Shown piece by piece: positions 10,194-14,744 of a stretch of DNA of 64,000 nt. The stretch's first letter is position 1. Every line of letters begins with the position of its first letter. The notes beneath the pieces are model-generated. The model ran no database searches, was not told the origin of the DNA, and saw nothing but the letters and a program-made list of their open reading frames with translations. The translations under genes and the position numbers were made by a program. Origin of the DNA: Klebsiella phage vB_KM5a1-KLB31. The stretch is taken from sequence record PP582757.1; one strand, 5' to 3'.

Positions 10194-10432
10194 TCCACTT
10201 CCTCGCTGTTTTCCATTGACAGAGGTTCAGACAAAGCCATGAGTTCGTCAACTGTCAGGCATTCGGTATCATCAGTAATAGCGAAACGCTTCAGATAGAA
10301 TGGATAATCCAGACAGTTATGAGTCTGCGCAGTCAAAGGACTGATACGAATCAGTTGTTGACCATTATGCATTACAAAGTTTTCGCCAACTTCAACATCT
10401 TTAAACAGTTTCATATTAATGTCCTTTGCCAA
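10190..10432 (-). CDS. Hypothetical acidic protein
   Basis: 80-aa ORF, translationally coupled to neighbours. Confidence 0.3.
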   Translation of the reverse strand: MAKDINMKLFKDVEVGENFVMHNGQQLIRISPLTAQTHNCLDYPFYLKRFAITDDTECLTVDELMALSEPLSMENSEEVE

Positions 10433-10724
10433 AGAAATAATCGGTCAGAGCAATTTCAACCGATTCATCGAGGAACACAAGTTCGTCATCAGCATCAAGC
10501 ATATCAGGGGTATCTTCCAGAGCGGCTTCACCGTCACGAAGACCTTGAAGTGCTGCTGCCCATGCACCTTCGAAATCACCATCAGCCTGTCGAGCAATAA
10601 GATTTGCATGAGACATTACCCATGATGCCTGCCAATGTTCAGTTTTATCATCGAAGATTTTGAATGAAGGACATTCAAACATCTCGGCAGGATAGTTGTT
10701 AACACCGTTCAGATTACGACGCAT
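10416..10724 (-). CDS. Hypothetical acidic protein
   Basis: 102-aa ORF preceded by an early promoter (~10745-10785). Confidence 0.3.
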   Translation of the reverse strand: MRRNLNGVNNYPAEMFECPSFKIFDDKTEHWQASWVMSHANLIARQADGDFEGAWAAALQGLRDGEAALEDTPDMLDADDELVFLDESVEIALTDYFFGKGH

Positions 10725-10751
10725 TTTGTTTCTCCAGTTCGTTAGTGTAGG

Positions 10752-10784
10752 AACATACTAACACGTCTTTTTATGGTTGTAAAC
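10752..10784 (-). promoter_or_regulatory. T4-type early promoter (GTTTAC ... TAGTAT/TATGTT)
   Basis: Minus-strand GTTTACaaccataaaaagacgtgttagTATGTT. Confidence 0.5.
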
Positions 10785-11237
10785 ACCTGCCCCTAAATAC
10801 CCGAAAGGGTCCCTCGGCAAAGAAGGACCCTTTCAAGTCGGCGCTGTACTTGGTCGCACCCAGAGGTAGCATTCGCCTTACGGTTTCACTTGCGATATCC
10901 ACCGTCGTTCGTTTAAGTTGATTTGTCATAGGGCTCGAACCTACACGCTTAGGTCTGTCGCACCGGCTTCCGCCTTACTCACCTGGGTACCAACCAGGGT
11001 TTCAAACAAGCTATTCCAGTCGTGTCTACCAAATTTCACCACACAAATCATAAATTGTACGGAACGCCTGGATTCGAACCAGGTTACAGGGCAGTTGACG
11101 CTACACTGCATTTTGGATAAGGCCGTCAACGCATTTCCTCAACAGGAGCATCGTCAAATGCTTCATCCTGGAGAAAACTTGTCAAGTCCTCGAACCGATA
11201 GTCAGCAATGCCTACTCAAAGAATAGGCATTAATAAC

Positions 11238-11654
11238 TTAGAAACCGAAACCTACACCGCCGCCATAAACAACTTCTTCGGAGGTAGCTGCTACAGAAAC
11301 TTTAAATGCTGCTGGAGCATCAGTTGGAGTGAAGTTCAGACCTGCTGCCAGGGCTTTTTCACCATCATAACCACCTACAGCCACGCCAACAGAGAATTCA
11401 TGGCCAGGCACTGCAGGAATATTAGACATTGCTGCTACACCGGCAATACCAGCAGAAGCATGTTCTTGTGCTTTCTGAATTTTATGATCGGCGCGCTGGT
11501 TAACATCACCAGTGATTACGCGATATTCGTCAGAGGCACGAATTTTTTCTTCTTTCTTAATTTGATCGATATCGATGTTAGGAATTTCGAATGCTGCCTG
11601 AGCAGTAAAAGAAGCACCAACGATTGCGATAACAGCCAGAGTACGTTTCATCAT
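11238..11654 (-). CDS. Secreted mini-protein with YadA-like (trimeric autotransporter) C-terminal membrane-anchor domain
   Basis: Signal peptide MMKRTLAVIAIVGASFTAQA. A short coiled segment follows, then AGIAGVAAMSNIPAVPGHEFSVGVAVGGYDGEKALAAGLNF...VGFGF. This matches the YadA anchor consensus (AGIAGA.A.A.LP...G.S...G.G...GE.A.A.G.S) and ends in an aromatic residue. Confidence 0.55.
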   Translation of the reverse strand: MMKRTLAVIAIVGASFTAQAAFEIPNIDIDQIKKEEKIRASDEYRVITGDVNQRADHKIQKAQEHASAGIAGVAAMSNIPAVPGHEFSVGVAVGGYDGEKALAAGLNFTPTDAPAAFKVSVAATSEEVVYGGGVGFGF

Positions 11655-12101
11655 TTCATTTTTACCTTTGTCATTGTTAACATTATATAGCCTCCGGGTT
11701 CAGAGAGTACAAACAAGTAGTTTGATATAGAACACCGTTTAACCTCAAGGATTTAATTAACAGTGGGAATAACATCACTTTGGTCCTCGGCATTTACTTA
11801 TAGGACCTCTAACTCATCTCTCTGAACTGCCTCGTATATCTAGTAGGTTGGACGCCACTCTACATTTAAGGGTCGAGTCTCCAACATATCTCGTCACGGT
11901 CCTCGGCGATTTTCCGTGGTCTACTTTAAAAGATTGCGCCCATCTTGTTGTGGTATTAGGCCATACCTTTCGGCTGGGTACTTCCAGGGAACAGAGCTTG
12001 GACGACTTAAGGGTGTACATCCATCTGGGCTTAGGGTCGTCTTACAGACACGAGTATTATTCCAACTCTACCACATCACCAGCTTGGCCCCTCTTGTTTT
12101 C

Positions 12102-12177
12102 TGGCAGGCGCTTGAGGAATCGAACCCCAGACCAATGGATTTGGAATCCACCGCTCTACCAACTGAGCTAAGCACCT
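12102..12177 (-). tRNA. tRNA-Trp (anticodon CCA), CCA end encoded
   Basis: Reverse complement folds as a cloverleaf: acceptor AGGTGCT/AGCGCCT, D-arm GCTCAGTTGGTAGAGC, anticodon loop TTCCAAA, T-arm TGGGG-TTCGATT-CCTCA. Confidence 0.8.
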
Positions 12178-12180
12178 AAT

Positions 12181-12256
12181 TGGGGTGACCTATGGGACTT
12201 GAACCCATGACTACAAGAATCACAATCTTAAATTCTACCAACTGAATTAAGGCCAC
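12181..12256 (-). tRNA. tRNA-His (anticodon GTG), CCA encoded
   Basis: Cloverleaf: acceptor GTGGCCT/AGGTCAC, D-arm ATTCAGTTGGTAGAAT, anticodon loop TTGTGAT, T-arm ATGGG-TTCAAGT-CCCAT. Confidence 0.8.
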
Positions 12257-12289
12257 AGCAATGTTCACTCAAATGAACGAACATTAATC

Positions 12290-12365
12290 TGGCGGATGTG
12301 CACGGATTCGAACCGCGGACCAATCACTTAACGGGCGACCGCTCTACCAACTGAGCTACACATCC
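12290..12365 (-). tRNA. tRNA-Asn (anticodon GTT), CCA encoded
   Basis: Cloverleaf: acceptor GGATGTG/CACATCC, D-arm GCTCAGTTGGTAGAGC, anticodon stem with two G-U pairs, loop CCGTTAA (unusual C33), T-arm CGCGG-TTCGAAT-CCGTG. Confidence 0.7.
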
Positions 12366-12366
12366 T

Positions 12367-12894
12367 TTATCTTGCAGATTTTATTTTGTTTTCTTTAAAT
12401 AGGTCGATAATAGAGTTAACATCGCCTTTAATCCACTCACCATCAGCATTTAAAGCTTTATGGAAAGAAAACTCTTCTTCAAAACGTTTATCACTGAAAT
12501 AGTAACATTCTAATTTATAATCACGTAAAGGGCAGTAGGATTGATAAGTGTTCAACCTATCATAAACATCCACTGTAGAACCTATTTTATACCATCCTTC
12601 AAAAGCAGGATTAGTTACGCAATAAATGAAACCTTCTTTAATACCTTTAGAAGAATTACCATTTCTGAAATACTTTACACGCAACAATGATAACTTGGTG
12701 AAGTTCACTTGTCGTGAAATCAATTTATCAGACTTTCGTGAAGCAGTGTCTGTATACTGGAGCTTAAAATTAGGATGAATATATTTGAAATAAATGTATT
12801 TAGCGAACTCAGTATTTATATCAAAATCAATCCCACTAATACCTTCTTCATTAAGATAAGCACTATATTGATTAATTATTTTGGCCTTATCCAT
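12367..12894 (-). mobile_element. GIY-YIG homing endonuclease (seg-like) gene embedded in the tRNA cluster
   Basis: GIY-YIG core GFIYCVTNPAFEGWYKIGSTVDVYDRLNTYQS. Strongly AT-rich relative to flanks. Sits between tRNA genes as T4 segB does. The stop codon abuts the tRNA-Asn 5' end. Confidence 0.65.
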
Positions 12895-12910
12895 ATTCTT
12901 CTCATAAATT

Positions 12911-12988
12911 TGGTAGGACGTGAGGGATTTGAACCCATCGACATCTCGATTAAAAGTCGAGTGCTCTAACCAGCTGAGCTAACGTCCT
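12911..12988 (-). tRNA. tRNA-Lys (anticodon TTT), imperfect T-stem
   Basis: Acceptor AGGACGT/ACGTCCT, D-arm GCTCAGCTGGTTAGAGC, anticodon arm CTCGA-CTTTTAA-TCGAG, 3' ACCA. The T-stem has only 3 G-C pairs plus 2 mismatches. Confidence 0.6.
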
Positions 12989-13000
12989 TCTTAATTCTAT

Positions 13001-13237
13001 TTATTCAGTATATCTCTTAAACTGTAAAGCAAAATCTTCATCAACTTTAGTTAAGAAGTGTCCTGCCTTAAATCGTTTAGAGCTACCTTCGACTTCTACA
13101 CCATATCCGTTCTTACCAAGGACTCGACCAACTCGCATTTCGCCAGGGTCACCCATTGAATTACAACGAACACCGTACAGAACAAAATCATTTTCGAATA
13201 CCGGAGCATTTTTCCGGTCAGTAATTAATTCTATCAT
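13001..13237 (-). CDS. Hypothetical protein
   Basis: 78-aa ORF within the tRNA region (analogous to the T4 tRNA.x ORFs). Confidence 0.3.
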   Translation of the reverse strand: MIELITDRKNAPVFENDFVLYGVRCNSMGDPGEMRVGRVLGKNGYGVEVEGSSKRFKAGHFLTKVDEDFALQFKRYTE

Positions 13238-13244
13238 ATTAACC

Positions 13245-13700
13245 TTAAAGCATATTACGTTTTAAGTTTTCACGAACTCGATAAAGGTTTGAACAGAATT
13301 CCTGTTCAGTCAAAACAGTTTCGTTCTTTTTCGACTTACCCATCGAGTGAGTTAATGTAGCGTTCTGCGTAGCCAGGAGCGCTCTCTGGAACCCTTCATT
13401 CAAGGCTAATTGATTATATGCTCGTTCGATAAGAAGACTGTAGGCGTCACTCTGGCGTTGCATAGGCACACCTTTCCAGTATAATGTCTGGAGTCGCCAC
13501 CAATTCTTTTTCTTACCTTTGAACTTAGCTTTCTTACCAACTAGAGTACAAACATGTTCCTGCATTTCTACTGAAGAAAATTTCAGTGATTGCAAAAAGC
13601 CTTCCATCGAAGCACATTGTACACCATCAATTTCAAAAGCATGAGGTGCAAAGTTACTTAGTGAAGAAGCAGGATATCCTGCGCCTGAACCGATATCCAT
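13245..13700 (-). CDS. Hypothetical protein beginning MDIGSGAGYP (glycine-rich SAM-binding-like motif I; weak)
   Basis: Start overlaps the upstream ORF stop as TAATG. DIGSGAG...AFEID resembles MTase motifs I/II, but no downstream catalytic motif is seen. Confidence 0.3.
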   Translation of the reverse strand: MDIGSGAGYPASSLSNFAPHAFEIDGVQCASMEGFLQSLKFSSVEMQEHVCTLVGKKAKFKGKKKNWWRLQTLYWKGVPMQRQSDAYSLLIERAYNQLALNEGFQRALLATQNATLTHSMGKSKKNETVLTEQEFCSNLYRVRENLKRNML

Positions 13701-13924
13701 TAATCACCCCATTGCATAATCATTGCGATATCATCAATATCTGTCACGATGTTTTCAATTTCATTGATAAAATTAGACAGATATGGAACCACATTAGGAG
13801 TATAAAGCCAATTGGCACATTGAATGCATTGATTGCCTACTTTATCCTGAAATATTACAGCTTCGGAATGGCTTCCACCTTTCCATCGTATTAAAGCAAA
13901 CCCTAATGGATATTTCTGACGCAT
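13700..13924 (-). CDS. Hypothetical small protein (single CxxC)
   Basis: 74-aa ORF with SD GAGGAAAA. Could be the N-terminal part of a split gene together with 13245..13700. Confidence 0.3.
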   Translation of the reverse strand: MRQKYPLGFALIRWKGGSHSEAVIFQDKVGNQCIQCANWLYTPNVVPYLSNFINEIENIVTDIDDIAMIMQWGD

Positions 13925-14144
13925 TATATTTTCCTCAGTTGTTTGTTCACAGCGGGGTGGATTCGAACCACCAATATTAAGTCACTCATGCTCCAAGCAT
14001 GCTAGGGCACTTACCCCGGACGGAATCGAACCGCATCTACAATACCTATCGCCATGTCTGGTGGCCCTTCTGGGAGTCTAACCCAGCTTACACCGATTAT
14101 GAGTCGGGTACTTTCACACGAAAGTATAAAGGGCCTGAATAAAC

Positions 14145-14233
14145 TTGGTACGGGTGACGAGATTCGAACTCGTAAGAGCTTAAGCCCTATGGCATTTTAA
14201 GTGCCATGCGTACTGCCAATACCGCCACACCCG
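14145..14233 (-). tRNA. tRNA-Leu (anticodon TAA), class II with long variable arm, CCA encoded
   Basis: Acceptor GCGGGTG/CACCCGT, anticodon arm TGGCA-CTTAAAA-TGCCA, 16-nt variable arm, T-arm ACGAG-TTCGAAT-CTCGT, 3' ACCA. T4 also encodes tRNA-Leu(UAA). Confidence 0.7.
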
Positions 14234-14441
14234 CTTTTCTATTTCGAAAGCTCTCACAGGACCGCAGCTTCATGGCCACGTATCTCTAACGTTTGTCTCG
14301 ACTTCACAGATCGCGTATTCCATTTGTCGTCTAGAGAACTTTCTGAATAGAGGCCTCAAATTTTTAGAGAGGGTATAGGATTAGCTTAGCTATCCTTGAG
14401 GCCAGATTGGAGTCATAACTCCAGGTAGTAATAATACTACA

Positions 14442-14744
14442 TTAACATAAAAGCATATTAATGTAAGTGTGTTGAATTCGTTTCAATTTCAACTTATTTT
14501 CAAAGATGTCATATTCACGAACCTGCTTACCATCTTCAGAAATAAAGAAGGAAAGGTTCACACTATTGAATTCCCAACGAATGTCTTTAAGATGCACATC
14601 CGTGGAGCTACGACCAATATCAACACGTTCAACTTCATATAAGTATTCAGAGCCGTTCTGCTCAATATGACGTTTTGAAGCTTCTTGGTCAGGCAGATAA
14701 CCATTTTCAGGCTTAGTAATCTGAGCAAATAATTTAATCATCAA
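14442..14744 (-). CDS. Hypothetical protein
   Basis: 100-aa ORF. Confidence 0.3.
   Translation of the reverse strand: MMIKLFAQITKPENGYLPDQEASKRHIEQNGSEYLYEVERVDIGRSSTDVHLKDIRWEFNSVNLSFFISEDGKQVREYDIFENKLKLKRIQHTYINMLLC

What the first reader, a model, noticed from the sequence alone, without database searches (positions are those of the whole stretch)
11238..11654. Phage-encoded mini trimeric-autotransporter: signal peptide + YadA-like membrane-anchor domain only
The 138-aa product has a cleavable signal peptide, a ~45-aa charged coiled segment, and a C-terminal ~70 aa that tracks the YadA/Hia anchor consensus almost residue by residue. That region reads AGIAGVAAMSNIPAVPG..SVGVAVGGYDGEKALAAGLNF...VGFGF-COOH, ending in an aromatic residue. 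Such anchors trimerise into a 12-strand outer-membrane barrel. A T4-like phage carrying a passenger-less TAA anchor in its early region is unusual. It could act in superinfection exclusion or receptor masking, as an OM-integrity or lysis-timing factor, or as a decoy. It sits directly downstream of the tRNA/ncRNA block.
Basis: partly seen in the sequence, partly recalled or inferred. Interest (0 to 1): 0.7.

Follow-up and report, generated by a model that had tools for sequence, protein, structure and literature searches.

The report
Anchor-only trimeric autotransporter in T4-like phage
A T4-like phage carries a real, conserved gene for a tiny outer-membrane protein that is essentially only the membrane anchor of a bacterial trimeric adhesin; the identification is solid and already present as a database label, but what the protein does for a lytic phage has never been tested.

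Summary
ORF 11238-11654 (minus strand, 138 aa) has a Sec-type signal peptide and a short charged helical segment. Its C-terminus matches Pfam YadA_anchor (E 4.4e-11, 43 bits against a cut-off of 22.7). An AlphaFold model shows one long helix plus four strands, and its only significant PDB matches are the Hia, AtaA and YadA anchors. The gene is under purifying selection (dN/dS about 0.2; 0.08 in the anchor).

The window is a Kanagawavirus close to Edwardsiella phage PEi20. The identical protein exists in Kosakonia phage 305, and UniRef already labels it with this domain. Proteins of 122-142 aa with the same layout sit in the tRNA clusters of five Tevenvirinae genera and of a probable T5-like phage. 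Other virulent phages carry longer versions with collagen-like stalks.

Several relatives have a T4 middle-type promoter, none has a late promoter nearby, and the gene lies outside the structural module, so the RefSeq label "tail protein" is probably wrong.

Most likely mechanism: Sec export, then BAM-dependent assembly into a 12-strand trimeric barrel that exposes only about 30 residues per chain. The physiological role is inferred only; an adsorption or superinfection block is my leading guess. No function was found in the searched literature.

The parts
11238..11654 (-). Coding sequence of the 138-aa mini trimeric autotransporter (stop codon at 11238-11240)
   Evidence: ORF list and sequence. 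Pfam YadA_anchor. phrog_8062 at E 6.7e-61. Purifying selection.
11595..11654 (-). Signal peptide, residues 1-20 (MMKRTLAVIAIVGASFTAQA), with predicted cleavage after AQA
   Evidence: Heuristic features: 2 positive charges, a hydrophobic core with KD mean 2.55, small residues at -3 and -1, no Cys. Modelled as helix 3-17 with low pLDDT. The layout is conserved in all homologues.
11460..11594 (-). Vestigial passenger and linker, residues 21-65. It is a 40% charged helical segment. By alignment to Hia and YadA, roughly residues 21-51 would lie outside the barrel and residues 52-77 inside its lumen.
   Evidence: Composition. Helices 29-39 and 42-77. Alignment to Hia and YadA. No head or stalk Pfam domain. 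49% identity to CF1, dN/dS 0.21. The split at residue 51/52 is my inference from the length of the aligned helix.
11241..11459 (-). Membrane anchor, residues 66-138. It comprises the small-residue lumen helix end (AGIAGVAAM), the periplasmic turn NIPAVPG, four beta-strands and the C-terminal aromatic signal GFGF.
   Evidence: Pfam hit on residues 83-138. Strands 87-96, 99-108, 115-124 and 128-136. Foldseek hits to Hia, AtaA and YadA. 85% identity to CF1, dN/dS 0.08. Invariant G105 aligns with the Gly of YadA 'ALAIG'.
11665..11669 (-). Shine-Dalgarno-like AAAGG, 10 nt before the start codon
   Evidence: Read directly from the sequence.
11682..11687 (-). A -10-like TATAAT, 27 nt before the start codon, with no good -35 or MotA box. 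It is a candidate promoter only.
   Evidence: Sequence. Not called by the sigma-70 scan. No strict MotA-type or late promoter within 450 nt upstream.
11201..11237 (-). Strong hairpin (12-bp stem) starting directly after the stop codon and not followed by a U run. It may mark a 3' end or stabilise the transcript.
   Evidence: RNA fold of 10925-11237, z-score -3.5. Not called as an intrinsic terminator.
12102..12365 (-). tRNA-Trp, tRNA-His and tRNA-Asn upstream on the same strand. This is the tRNA cluster in which the gene family is embedded.
   Evidence: ARAGORN. Rfam tRNA at 60-65 bits.

Best explanation
The gene encodes a minimal type Vc (trimeric) autotransporter, essentially an anchor without a passenger.

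Proposed mechanism:
1. The precursor is exported by Sec and cleaved after AQA (residue 20). This gives a 118-aa, 12.2-kDa mature chain.
2. Three chains are inserted by the host BAM machinery. Each contributes four beta-strands (residues 87-136), forming one 12-strand outer-membrane barrel.
3. The three helices (about residues 52-77, rich in small residues: AGIAGVAAM) fill the barrel lumen.
4. Only about 30 N-terminal residues per chain emerge on the cell surface, as a short trimeric cap.

The gene is expressed before the late period. It needs no phage partner protein. The infected cell's outer membrane therefore becomes populated with a very stable phage-made trimer.

What is shown: the domain, the fold, the signal-peptide features, conservation, purifying selection, the genomic position, and middle-type promoters in relatives.

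What is inferred from established knowledge of YadA, Hia and the engineered YadA anchor: trimerisation, outer-membrane localisation, BAM dependence and topology.

Physiological role (inference only; my probability is about 0.3). The protein changes the infected cell surface so that further phage adsorption or productive superinfection is reduced. This would also reduce loss of progeny on cell debris. It would be analogous in logic to T5 Llp, Cor or TraT, although unrelated in structure.

The confidence given below applies to the molecular identity and mechanism, not to the role.
For: Identity and fold:
- Pfam YadA_anchor at E 4.4e-11, above the gathering score.
- PDB sequence hits to Hia, AtaA and YadA anchors.
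- The AlphaFold2 topology is a helix plus 4 strands.
- The top five Foldseek PDB hits are all trimeric-autotransporter anchors with probability 1.00; the next hit has E 0.18.
- 18 BFVD hits at E at or below 1e-3, all those with names being phage YadA-anchor proteins.

Assembly-relevant features:
- Signal-peptide features and absence of a lipobox.
- C-terminal aromatic residue.
- Invariant Gly aligned to YadA 'ALAIG'.

Selection and conservation:
- dN/dS is 0.08 in the anchor and 0.21 in the passenger.
- Close Winklervirus pairs show 0 non-synonymous against 4-6 synonymous changes in the passenger.

Size and precedent:
- The mature size of 118 aa is comparable to the crystallised or NMR minimal translocator units: YadA 2lme at 105 aa and Hia 2gr7 at 129 aa.
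- An engineered YadA anchor-only construct assembles in the E. coli outer membrane as an SDS-stable trimer with only a short surface stretch (PMC5681912).

Timing and context:
- Strict MotA-box middle promoters lie 23-29 nt upstream of the start codon in X20, CHI14, phiR1-RT and fHe-Yen9-01.
- No TATAAATA late promoter occurs within 400 nt upstream in any copy.
- Three strict MotA-type promoter matches lie upstream on the same strand in the window.
- There is no conserved neighbouring partner gene; the neighbours are tRNAs.
Against: - Trimerisation, outer-membrane localisation and surface exposure were not tested. No multimer prediction was possible.
- The monomer model has only moderate confidence: mean pLDDT 63, and about 42-55 (10-residue block means) over residues 1-50.
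- The signal peptide was judged by heuristics, not by SignalP.
- The window copy has no recognisable middle promoter, only a -10-like TATAAT. Its timing is therefore extrapolated from relatives.

Against the exclusion role specifically:
- There is no direct evidence for it.
- There is no PADLOC match.
- There is no sign of diversifying selection on the exposed segment, as an arms-race surface protein might show.
- T-even phages are known to exploit secondary adsorption for lysis inhibition, so blocking adsorption is not obviously advantageous (established knowledge).
Confidence: 0.8

Rival explanations
1. Envelope-state or lysis-timing factor. Mass insertion of a very stable barrel stiffens or perturbs the outer membrane, or occupies BAM or an envelope-stress pathway. 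This would tune when and how the infected cell bursts. No receptor is involved.
For: What is most conserved is the anchor itself and its periplasmic turns: the invariant I79-P80-x-V82-P83-G84 and F108-x-P110, with dN/dS 0.08. The exposed part is very short in some relatives. By my alignment-based estimate it is about 16-19 residues in phiR1-RT and X20. This suggests that the barrel may matter more than the tip.
Against: Relatives use middle rather than late promoters. The gene is not next to holin, endolysin or spanin genes. The NIP..PG turn is a general feature of trimeric autotransporters and is not specific to the phage family.
Confidence: 0.15
2. Aggregation factor. The protein makes infected cells clump or stick to neighbouring cells or surfaces, which would raise local host density for released progeny.
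For: Cells expressing the engineered YadA anchor-only construct tend to clump (PMC5681912). Longer phage relatives are annotated as autoagglutinating adhesins and carry collagen-like or long passengers.
Against: Autoaggregation by trimeric autotransporters is reported to be homotypic and mediated by head domains (abstract of PMC7568254). This protein has no head domain. Clumping of over-expressing laboratory strains may be an artefact.
Confidence: 0.1
3. Virion tail or adhesin protein, as labelled in RefSeq for Kosakonia phage 305 ('tail protein') and in PHROG families 17426 and 26246.
For: The RefSeq product name. PHROG category 'tail' for related families.
Against: - The protein has a cleavable signal peptide and an outer-membrane beta-barrel anchor.
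- The gene lies in the tRNA/small-ORF region and not in the structural module.
- No late promoter lies upstream, and relatives have middle promoters.
- The best PHROG match, phrog_8062, is 'unknown function'.
- The longer relatives in phiEco32 and the N4-like phage TR2 also sit among non-structural genes, as PMC3728262 noted for SP-058 and SP-076.
- The label most likely propagated from the word 'adhesin'.
Confidence: 0.03
4. Host-virulence or 'auxiliary' gene, as the literature proposes for yadA homologues in N4-like and Salmonella phages. The protein would increase adhesion or serum resistance of the bacterium.
For: This interpretation is offered in PMC10654107 and PMC3728262. Prophage-borne Eib trimeric autotransporters are the precedent (and established knowledge).
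Against: - These are strictly virulent T4-like phages that kill the cell within one cycle.
- No integrase was identified in Kc305 (PMC8402661).
- There is no adhesive head or stalk domain.
- Known serum-resistance and adhesion functions map to passengers (established knowledge).
Confidence: 0.04
5. Largely neutral hitch-hiker. The ORF persists because it lies in the co-conversion tract of a homing-endonuclease-like gene in the tRNA region, not because it benefits the phage.
For: A block 99-100% identical to Kc305 runs from the stop codon of this gene (about 11240) to about 13140. It is centred on a T5orf172-domain ORF. The surrounding 25 kb is only 80.8% identical.
Against: - Strong purifying selection across genera.
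- The full architecture is retained in five T4-like genera and in a probable T5-like phage.
- Copies in other genera are not next to such an endonuclease gene.
Confidence: 0.05

Closest known systems
Membrane anchors (translocator units) of trimeric autotransporter adhesins: YadA (PDB 2lme), Hia (2gr7, 3emo), AtaA (9vnj); Pfam PF03895
   Same: The same domain by profile and the same fold of one lumen helix plus four strands per chain. Also shared are the small-residue helix motif, the conserved strand glycine and the C-terminal aromatic residue. The mature size (118 aa) is comparable to the minimal constructs used for structure determination (105-129 aa).
   Different: In bacteria this unit is the C-terminal end of a protein of 239 to more than 1800 aa in the bacterial loci examined here. 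Here it is the whole protein. Sequence identity to the solved anchors is only 22-26%.
Engineered YadA membrane-anchor-only construct (YadAM; Wollmann et al. 2006, as used in PMC5681912)
   Same: A signal peptide plus the anchor with only a short surface-exposed stretch. It assembles as an SDS- and urea-stable trimer in the E. coli outer membrane. It is the closest functional analogue of what this natural protein should do.
   Different: It is a laboratory truncation and not a natural gene. It has no biological role. It carries a foreign signal peptide and a tag.
Longer trimeric autotransporters of other virulent phages: phiEco32 phi32_119 (265 aa), N4-like TR2 gp24 (325 aa), FSL SP-058/076 'agglutinating adhesin', Erwinia jumbo phage Yoloswag (742 aa)
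   Same: A signal peptide and the same anchor, at 43-53% identity over the anchor. They are encoded by virulent phages outside the structural modules (PMC3728262). Their function is also unknown.
   Different: They carry real passengers: collagen triple-helix repeats or long head and stalk regions. The window protein has none.
Eib immunoglobulin-binding proteins (EibA, C, D, E, F, G) of E. coli prophages
   Same: They are phage-borne trimeric autotransporters. The EibD structure 2xqh is listed under 'Enterobacteria phage P'.
   Different: They belong to temperate phages and act by lysogenic conversion. They are full-length proteins whose functions (immunoglobulin binding, chain-like adherence) depend on passengers. 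They are not located in tRNA arrays.
Phage- or plasmid-encoded outer-membrane exclusion proteins: T5 Llp, phi80/N15 Cor, F-plasmid TraT (established knowledge)
   Same: The proposed logic is the same: a small envelope protein, made before lysis, that alters the cell surface against further phage adsorption. T5 Llp also protects progeny from receptor in debris.
   Different: They are lipoproteins that act on a defined receptor (FhuA or OmpA). The window protein has no Cys and no lipobox. It is unrelated in fold, and no target is known. This is an analogy only and not a membership claim.

Membership tests
Trimeric autotransporter (type Vc secretion), defined by the YadA-like anchor | C-terminal YadA_anchor domain (PF03895) scoring above the curated threshold | tested here: met
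   43.1 bits against a gathering score of 22.7, E 4.4e-11, residues 83-138 on profile positions 5-60 of 60. All relatives tested also pass.
Trimeric autotransporter (type Vc secretion), defined by the YadA-like anchor | Per-chain topology of one long helix followed by four antiparallel beta-strands | tested here: met
   The AlphaFold2 model has helix 42-77 and strands 87-96, 99-108, 115-124 and 128-136. The Foldseek top five hits are Hia, AtaA and YadA anchors with probability 1.00 and target-normalised TM-scores of 0.61-0.78. Model confidence is moderate (pLDDT 63).
Trimeric autotransporter (type Vc secretion), defined by the YadA-like anchor | N-terminal Sec signal peptide | tested here: met
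   Heuristic only: K3 and R4, a hydrophobic core with KD mean 2.55, AQA at positions -3 to -1, and no lipobox. The layout is conserved in all family members. SignalP was not available.
Trimeric autotransporter (type Vc secretion), defined by the YadA-like anchor | C-terminal aromatic residue (beta-signal for BAM) and the conserved pore-facing glycine in strand 2 (YadA G389; residue number recalled from the literature) | tested here: met
   The protein ends in GFGF. Invariant G105 aligns with the Gly of YadA 'ALAIG' in the profile alignment.
Trimeric autotransporter (type Vc secretion), defined by the YadA-like anchor | Obligate homotrimer forming a 12-strand barrel in the outer membrane, dependent on BAM | not testable with these tools
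   Only monomer prediction was available. This is inferred from homology and from the behaviour of the engineered YadA anchor.
Trimeric autotransporter ADHESIN (functional class) | Passenger with head, neck or stalk modules that mediate adhesion | tested here: not met
   Pfam detects no domain other than the anchor. Only about 45 residues lie between the signal peptide and the anchor, and about 30 of them are predicted to be outside the barrel. NCBIfam Ata and Vomp matches are far below their cut-offs and cover only the C-terminal end. It should therefore be filed as an autotransporter anchor and not as an adhesin.
Phage tail protein (RefSeq and PHROG label) | Encoded in the structural or late module, expressed from a late promoter, and present in virions | tested here: not met
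   The gene lies in the tRNA/small-ORF region. No TATAAATA occurs within 400-450 nt upstream, and relatives have middle promoters. Virion presence could not be tested.
Outer-membrane lipoprotein exclusion factors (Llp, Cor, TraT type) | Lipobox with the Cys that is acylated | tested here: not met
   The protein contains no cysteine.
Known anti-phage defence or exclusion proteins (PADLOC-DB) | Profile match to any catalogued defence protein | tested here: not met
   0 families at E up to 1.

The most novel reading that the evidence does not exclude
Anchor-only trimeric autotransporters may form a distinct, mobile class of phage accessory genes. They would spread as cassettes through the tRNA arrays of unrelated virulent phages (T4-like and T5-like), by homing-endonuclease co-conversion or tRNA-flank recombination. 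Their barrel, with a 16-31-residue cap, would be a dedicated tool for remodelling the infected cell's outer membrane. Possible effects include blocking adsorption of competing or sibling phages, or protecting progeny from debris. If so, the type V secretion anchor would have an effector function of its own, independent of any passenger.
Probability: 0.25. Interest if true: 0.65.

Novelty: new variant of a known kind. Interest (0 to 1): 0.45.

Why it matters
Trimeric autotransporters are normally understood as a passenger (the adhesin) delivered by an anchor. Here, natural selection keeps the anchor alone in strictly lytic phages of at least five T4-like genera. This implies that the barrel, or its tiny cap, does something useful during a single infection cycle of roughly tens of minutes.

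If that role is exclusion or receptor shielding, it would add a new structural class to the few outer-membrane-level exclusion mechanisms known for virulent phages. It would also be relevant to phage-cocktail design, because several carriers infect Edwardsiella, Yersinia, Salmonella, Serratia and Erwinia.

The protein is also a naturally minimal model substrate for BAM and type Vc assembly.

On the practical side, the RefSeq label 'tail protein' for this family is probably wrong and should not be propagated.

Tried and rejected
- NCBIfam gave only sub-threshold hits to Ata and Vomp C-termini. They add nothing beyond Pfam.
- PADLOC gave no match.
- The sigma-70 promoter and intrinsic-terminator scan found nothing usable next to the gene.
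- The Rfam scan of 10400-14600 found only the tRNAs. No known ncRNA family lies in the flanking gaps.
- The upstream gap 11690-12101 folds no better than shuffled sequence, z 0.14. I therefore do not support a structured ncRNA there.
- I looked for diversifying selection on the exposed N-terminal segment, between Kanagawa- and Moonvirus and among seven Winklervirus copies. I found only purifying selection.
- I looked for a phage-specific anchor clade. The best bacterial anchors (47% identity; Enterobacter MAG, Klebsiella) are as close as the best non-mini phage anchors (45-48%). No such claim is made.
- I considered a heterotrimer 'poison subunit' acting on host autotransporters. I rejected it as unlikely because host gene expression is shut off in T4-type infection and existing host fibres are already assembled (established knowledge).
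- I considered a spanin-like lysis role. I rejected it for lack of a lipobox, lack of a late promoter and lack of lysis-gene neighbours.
No paper in the searchable library tests the function of any phage YadA-anchor protein, and the LC53 paper does not discuss its annotated copy.
- Trimer prediction was not possible with the monomer-only structure tool.
Full report
**What is there**

The window is a T4-like phage of the genus Kanagawavirus. Its first 25 kb are 96% identical to Edwardsiella phage PEi20 and PEi26 and 80.8% identical to Kosakonia phage 305 (Kc305) (taxonomy).

The finding corresponds exactly to an ORF at 11238-11654 on the minus strand, 138 aa long. All neighbouring genes and tRNAs are on the same strand. 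PEi20 annotates the ORF as a hypothetical protein (ORF-150). GenBank annotates it as hypothetical in Kc305, and RefSeq as 'tail protein'.

**Checking the observation**

- Residues 1-20 have the features of an Sec signal peptide: K3 and R4, a hydrophobic core, AQA at positions -3 to -1, and no cysteine and hence no lipobox. This is a heuristic check, since SignalP was not available. The same layout is found in every homologue.
- Residues 21-65 are 40% charged and predicted helical.
- The C-terminal part matches Pfam YadA_anchor at E 4.4e-11, 43.1 bits against a gathering score of 22.7, covering 56 of the 60 profile positions.
- Sequence search of the PDB finds only trimeric-autotransporter anchors: Hia, AtaA and YadA. 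A profile of the family improves this to about 2e-6 for AtaA and YadA.
- An AlphaFold2 monomer model (mean pLDDT 63, which is moderate, as expected for one chain of an obligate trimer) gives a long helix at 42-77 and four strands.
- Its only significant Foldseek hits in the PDB are the five solved anchor entries, each with probability 1.00. The next hit has E 0.18.
- The family's invariant G105 aligns with the glycine of YadA 'ALAIG'. The literature, as I recall it, describes this glycine as important for autotransport.
- The protein ends in GFGF.

The reading frame is real.
- Against the orthologue in Citrobacter phage CF1, dN/dS is 0.20 overall, 0.08 in the anchor and 0.21 in the passenger.
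- Against Kc305 there are 2 nucleotide differences, both synonymous. Against PEi20 there are 7, of which 6 are synonymous.

**How anchor-only it is**

Pfam finds no head, neck or stalk domain. By alignment with Hia and YadA, the helix segment at about residues 52-77 should lie inside the barrel. That leaves about 31 residues per chain on the surface.

By the same estimate, the shorter relatives X20 and phiR1-RT would expose only about 16-19 residues. This split is my inference from the alignment.

The mature chain is 118 aa and 12.2 kDa. That is comparable to the minimal translocator constructs used for structure work, at 105-129 aa. An engineered YadA anchor-only construct is known to assemble in the E. 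coli outer membrane as an SDS-stable trimer with only a short exposed stretch, and cells expressing it tend to clump (PMC5681912). This is direct precedent that a protein of this design can be assembled.

- The identical protein occurs in Kc305, and UniRef already names it 'Trimeric autotransporter adhesin YadA-like C-terminal membrane anchor domain-containing protein'. The LC53 copy is annotated 'Yad_anchor domain-containing protein'.
- Proteins of 122-142 aa with the same layout occur in Kanagawavirus, Moonvirus (CF1), Winklervirus (X20, CHI14, CBH8, LC53, Virsaitis27, Kc304, Gravdalen, Vettismorki), Tegunavirus (phiR1-RT, TG1, fHe-Yen9-01) and Gelderlandvirus (CGG4-1). In every case the gene lies inside or at the edge of the tRNA cluster.
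- The gene is absent from the closely related Enterobacter phages, which match only the flanks. No Tequatrovirus appears among the listed hits. This probably explains why the gene has never been studied.
- In all, 72 phage records carry a related anchor. IMG/VR yields 37 loci whose first-ATG ORF calls span 62-860 aa, the shortest being truncated calls. Complete proteins of 122-142 aa occur only on T4-like genomes.
- The longer phage versions, for example phiEco32 phi32_119 and gp24 of the N4-like phage TR2, combine a signal peptide, collagen triple-helix repeats and the anchor. They also sit among non-structural genes.
- A scan of one genome per bacterial species found only anchor-level matches, at no more than 47% identity. 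The complete ORFs there were 239-1872 aa.
- Unrelated short YadA-anchor proteins do exist in Oxalobacter (135 aa) and Enterobacter hormaechei (147 aa).
- The exhaustive profile search found 1097 representatives at E up to 1e-3. Only 3 reached E up to 1e-30, and all three are mini proteins of this family.

**Literature**

yadA homologues in virulent phages have been noted since at least 2013. That paper pointed out that they lie away from tail genes (PMC3728262). A 2023 survey listed them as presumed virulence-type auxiliary genes in N4-like phages (PMC10654107).

No paper in the searchable library tests their function, and none describes the anchor-only form in T4-like phages. Prophage-borne full-length trimeric autotransporters (the Eib proteins) are the established precedent for phage carriage.

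**Expression timing**

In X20, CHI14, phiR1-RT and fHe-Yen9-01, a strict T4 middle-promoter match lies 23-29 nt upstream of the start codon. The match is a MotA box TGCTTYA, 11-13 nt of spacer, then TAnnnT. No copy has the late-promoter motif TATAAATA within 400 nt upstream.

The window copy, like those of PEi20 and Kc305, has a different upstream sequence. It has only a perfect -10-like TATAAT 27 nt before the start codon and no convincing -35 or MotA box. It could also be reached by read-through from three strict MotA-type promoter matches further upstream on the same strand, at 12722-13252.

I therefore infer pre-late expression. This fits a protein that must be exported and assembled before lysis. 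It argues against a virion or lysis-cassette role. For the window copy itself this remains an extrapolation.

**Mechanism**

The molecular mechanism is well supported by homology (confidence about 0.8):
1. Sec export.
2. Cleavage after residue 20.
3. BAM-dependent insertion.
4. Trimerisation into a 12-strand barrel whose lumen is filled by three helices.
5. Display of a very short trimeric cap on the surface.

No conserved partner gene accompanies the gene, which is consistent with the self-sufficiency of autotransporters.

The physiological role is not determined by anything I could compute. My leading inference, at about 0.3, is a change of the infected cell surface that lowers adsorption or productive superinfection and lowers loss of progeny on debris. 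This is an analogy with the small envelope proteins T5 Llp, Cor and TraT, which are structurally unrelated lipoproteins.

Three points count against it. There is no PADLOC match. There is no diversifying selection on the exposed segment. T-even phages also exploit secondary adsorption for lysis inhibition (established knowledge).

The rivals are listed below with my rough probabilities.
- An envelope-state, lysis-timing or BAM-occupancy role of the barrel itself: about 0.15.
- Aggregation of infected cells: about 0.1.
- A near-neutral hitch-hiker of homing-endonuclease co-conversion: about 0.05, contradicted by purifying selection across genera.
- A host-virulence gene: about 0.04.
- A tail protein: about 0.03.

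**Mobility (a by-product of the check)**

Against Kc305, the window is 99-100% identical from about 11240 to about 13140, apart from a short indel-rich stretch at about 12040-12139 (69%). The left boundary is the stop codon of this gene. The flanks are 76-93% identical and the 25-kb average is 80.8%.

The block contains this gene, four tRNA genes and a T5orf172/MUG113-domain ORF at 12367-12894. That ORF is plausibly a homing endonuclease, like T4 SegB in the T4 tRNA region (the SegB comparison is from memory).

Three further observations point the same way.
- Winklervirus has two divergent alleles of the gene. Virsaitis27 is classified in the chi14 species but carries the X20-type allele.
- A 123-aa family member with 37% identity lies between tRNA-Gly and tRNA-Glu in a 27-tRNA array on metagenomic contigs. 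Patches of those contigs match T5-like Proteus and Providencia phages. Contigs carrying members of this protein's 90%-identity cluster reach 106 kb.
- Its closest relatives among cultured phages are the T4-like mini proteins.

Together these suggest a cassette that moves between phage tRNA arrays.

**Verdict**

The protein is a member of the trimeric-autotransporter family by its defining anchor. It should not be called an adhesin or a tail protein.

It is a natural anchor-only variant that is conserved and mobile among virulent phages. Its function is unknown and easy to test. The domain assignment itself is already in public databases, so the novelty lies in the architecture, the recurrent tRNA-array context and the open functional question.

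Interest is moderate, at 0.45.

Noticed in passing
window 11240-13140: This block is 99-100% identical to Kosakonia phage 305, apart from an indel-rich stretch at about 12040-12139. The flanks are 76-93% identical and the 25-kb average is 80.8%. The block runs from the stop codon of the mini autotransporter through tRNA-Trp, His and Asn, a T5orf172-domain ORF and tRNA-Lys. The pattern looks like a recent exchange or a homing-endonuclease co-conversion tract.
   Followed up: partly
window 12367-12894 (-): A 175-aa ORF lies between tRNA-Asn and tRNA-Lys. It has T5orf172 (E 2e-7) and MUG113 domains. It is plausibly a homing-endonuclease-like insertion in the tRNA cluster, comparable in position to T4 segB. 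A T5orf172 gene also lies at the edge of the tRNA array in the T5-like contig L078.
   Followed up: partly
window 10925-11237 (-): The 313-nt non-coding stretch downstream of the gene folds much better than shuffled sequence (z -3.5, 0 of 100 shuffles). It starts with a 12-bp hairpin right after the stop codon. It contains T-arm-like GGTTCGA motifs. ARAGORN at a relaxed threshold gives weak tRNA-like calls at 10920-11124. Window 10930-11043 is 92-95% identical to unannotated sequence in Klebsiella and Raoultella T4-like phages. It may be decayed tRNAs or a stable tRNA-like RNA. No Rfam family matches.
   Followed up: partly
window 11655-12101 (-): This is a 447-nt gap between tRNA-Trp and the gene. 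It folds no better than shuffled sequence (z 0.14). Even so, 11785-11926 is 89% identical to Yersinia phage MHG19. PEi20 annotates a tRNA-Asp in the corresponding region, which neither ARAGORN nor Rfam calls in the window.
   Followed up: partly
L078 5001-5372 and L079 2290-2661 (metagenomic contigs); L081 139-567: Mini autotransporters of the same family (123 and 142 aa) are embedded in tRNA arrays outside the T4-like phages. One array has 27 tRNAs in 10 kb, and patches of its contig match T5-like Proteus and Providencia phages. The association of this gene with phage tRNA clusters therefore recurs across phage families.
   Followed up: partly
L007 1955-2752 (phiEco32 phi32_119); L008 1802-2779 (Salmonella phage TR2 gp24): These virulent podophages encode proteins with a signal peptide, collagen triple-helix repeats and a YadA anchor. 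The genes lie among early or non-structural genes, yet RefSeq labels them 'tail protein'. The phiEco32 annotated start is probably too far upstream. A good signal peptide begins at MKAIVLSS.
   Followed up: partly
L004, L012, L073-L077 (Winklervirus copies): The gene has two divergent alleles within one genus. They share identical first 37 residues but have saturated synonymous divergence downstream. Virsaitis27 (species chi14) carries the X20-type allele, which indicates allelic replacement by recombination inside the gene or the tRNA cluster.
   Followed up: partly
window 12722-12745, 13007-13031, 13228-13252 (-): Three of the four strict T4 middle-promoter (MotA-box) matches in the 64-kb window cluster in the tRNA region, on the transcribed strand. 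The total of four is not itself significant, since 7 of 100 shuffles reach it.
   Followed up: no
window 14065-14133 (-): A sub-threshold tRNA-like match (Rfam tRNA at 22 bits against a gathering score of 29, E 0.33) lies next to tRNA-Leu. Homology to PEi20 breaks here: PEi20 has about 530 bp, including a tRNA-Met, where the window has about 75 bp. It is possibly a tRNA remnant.
   Followed up: no
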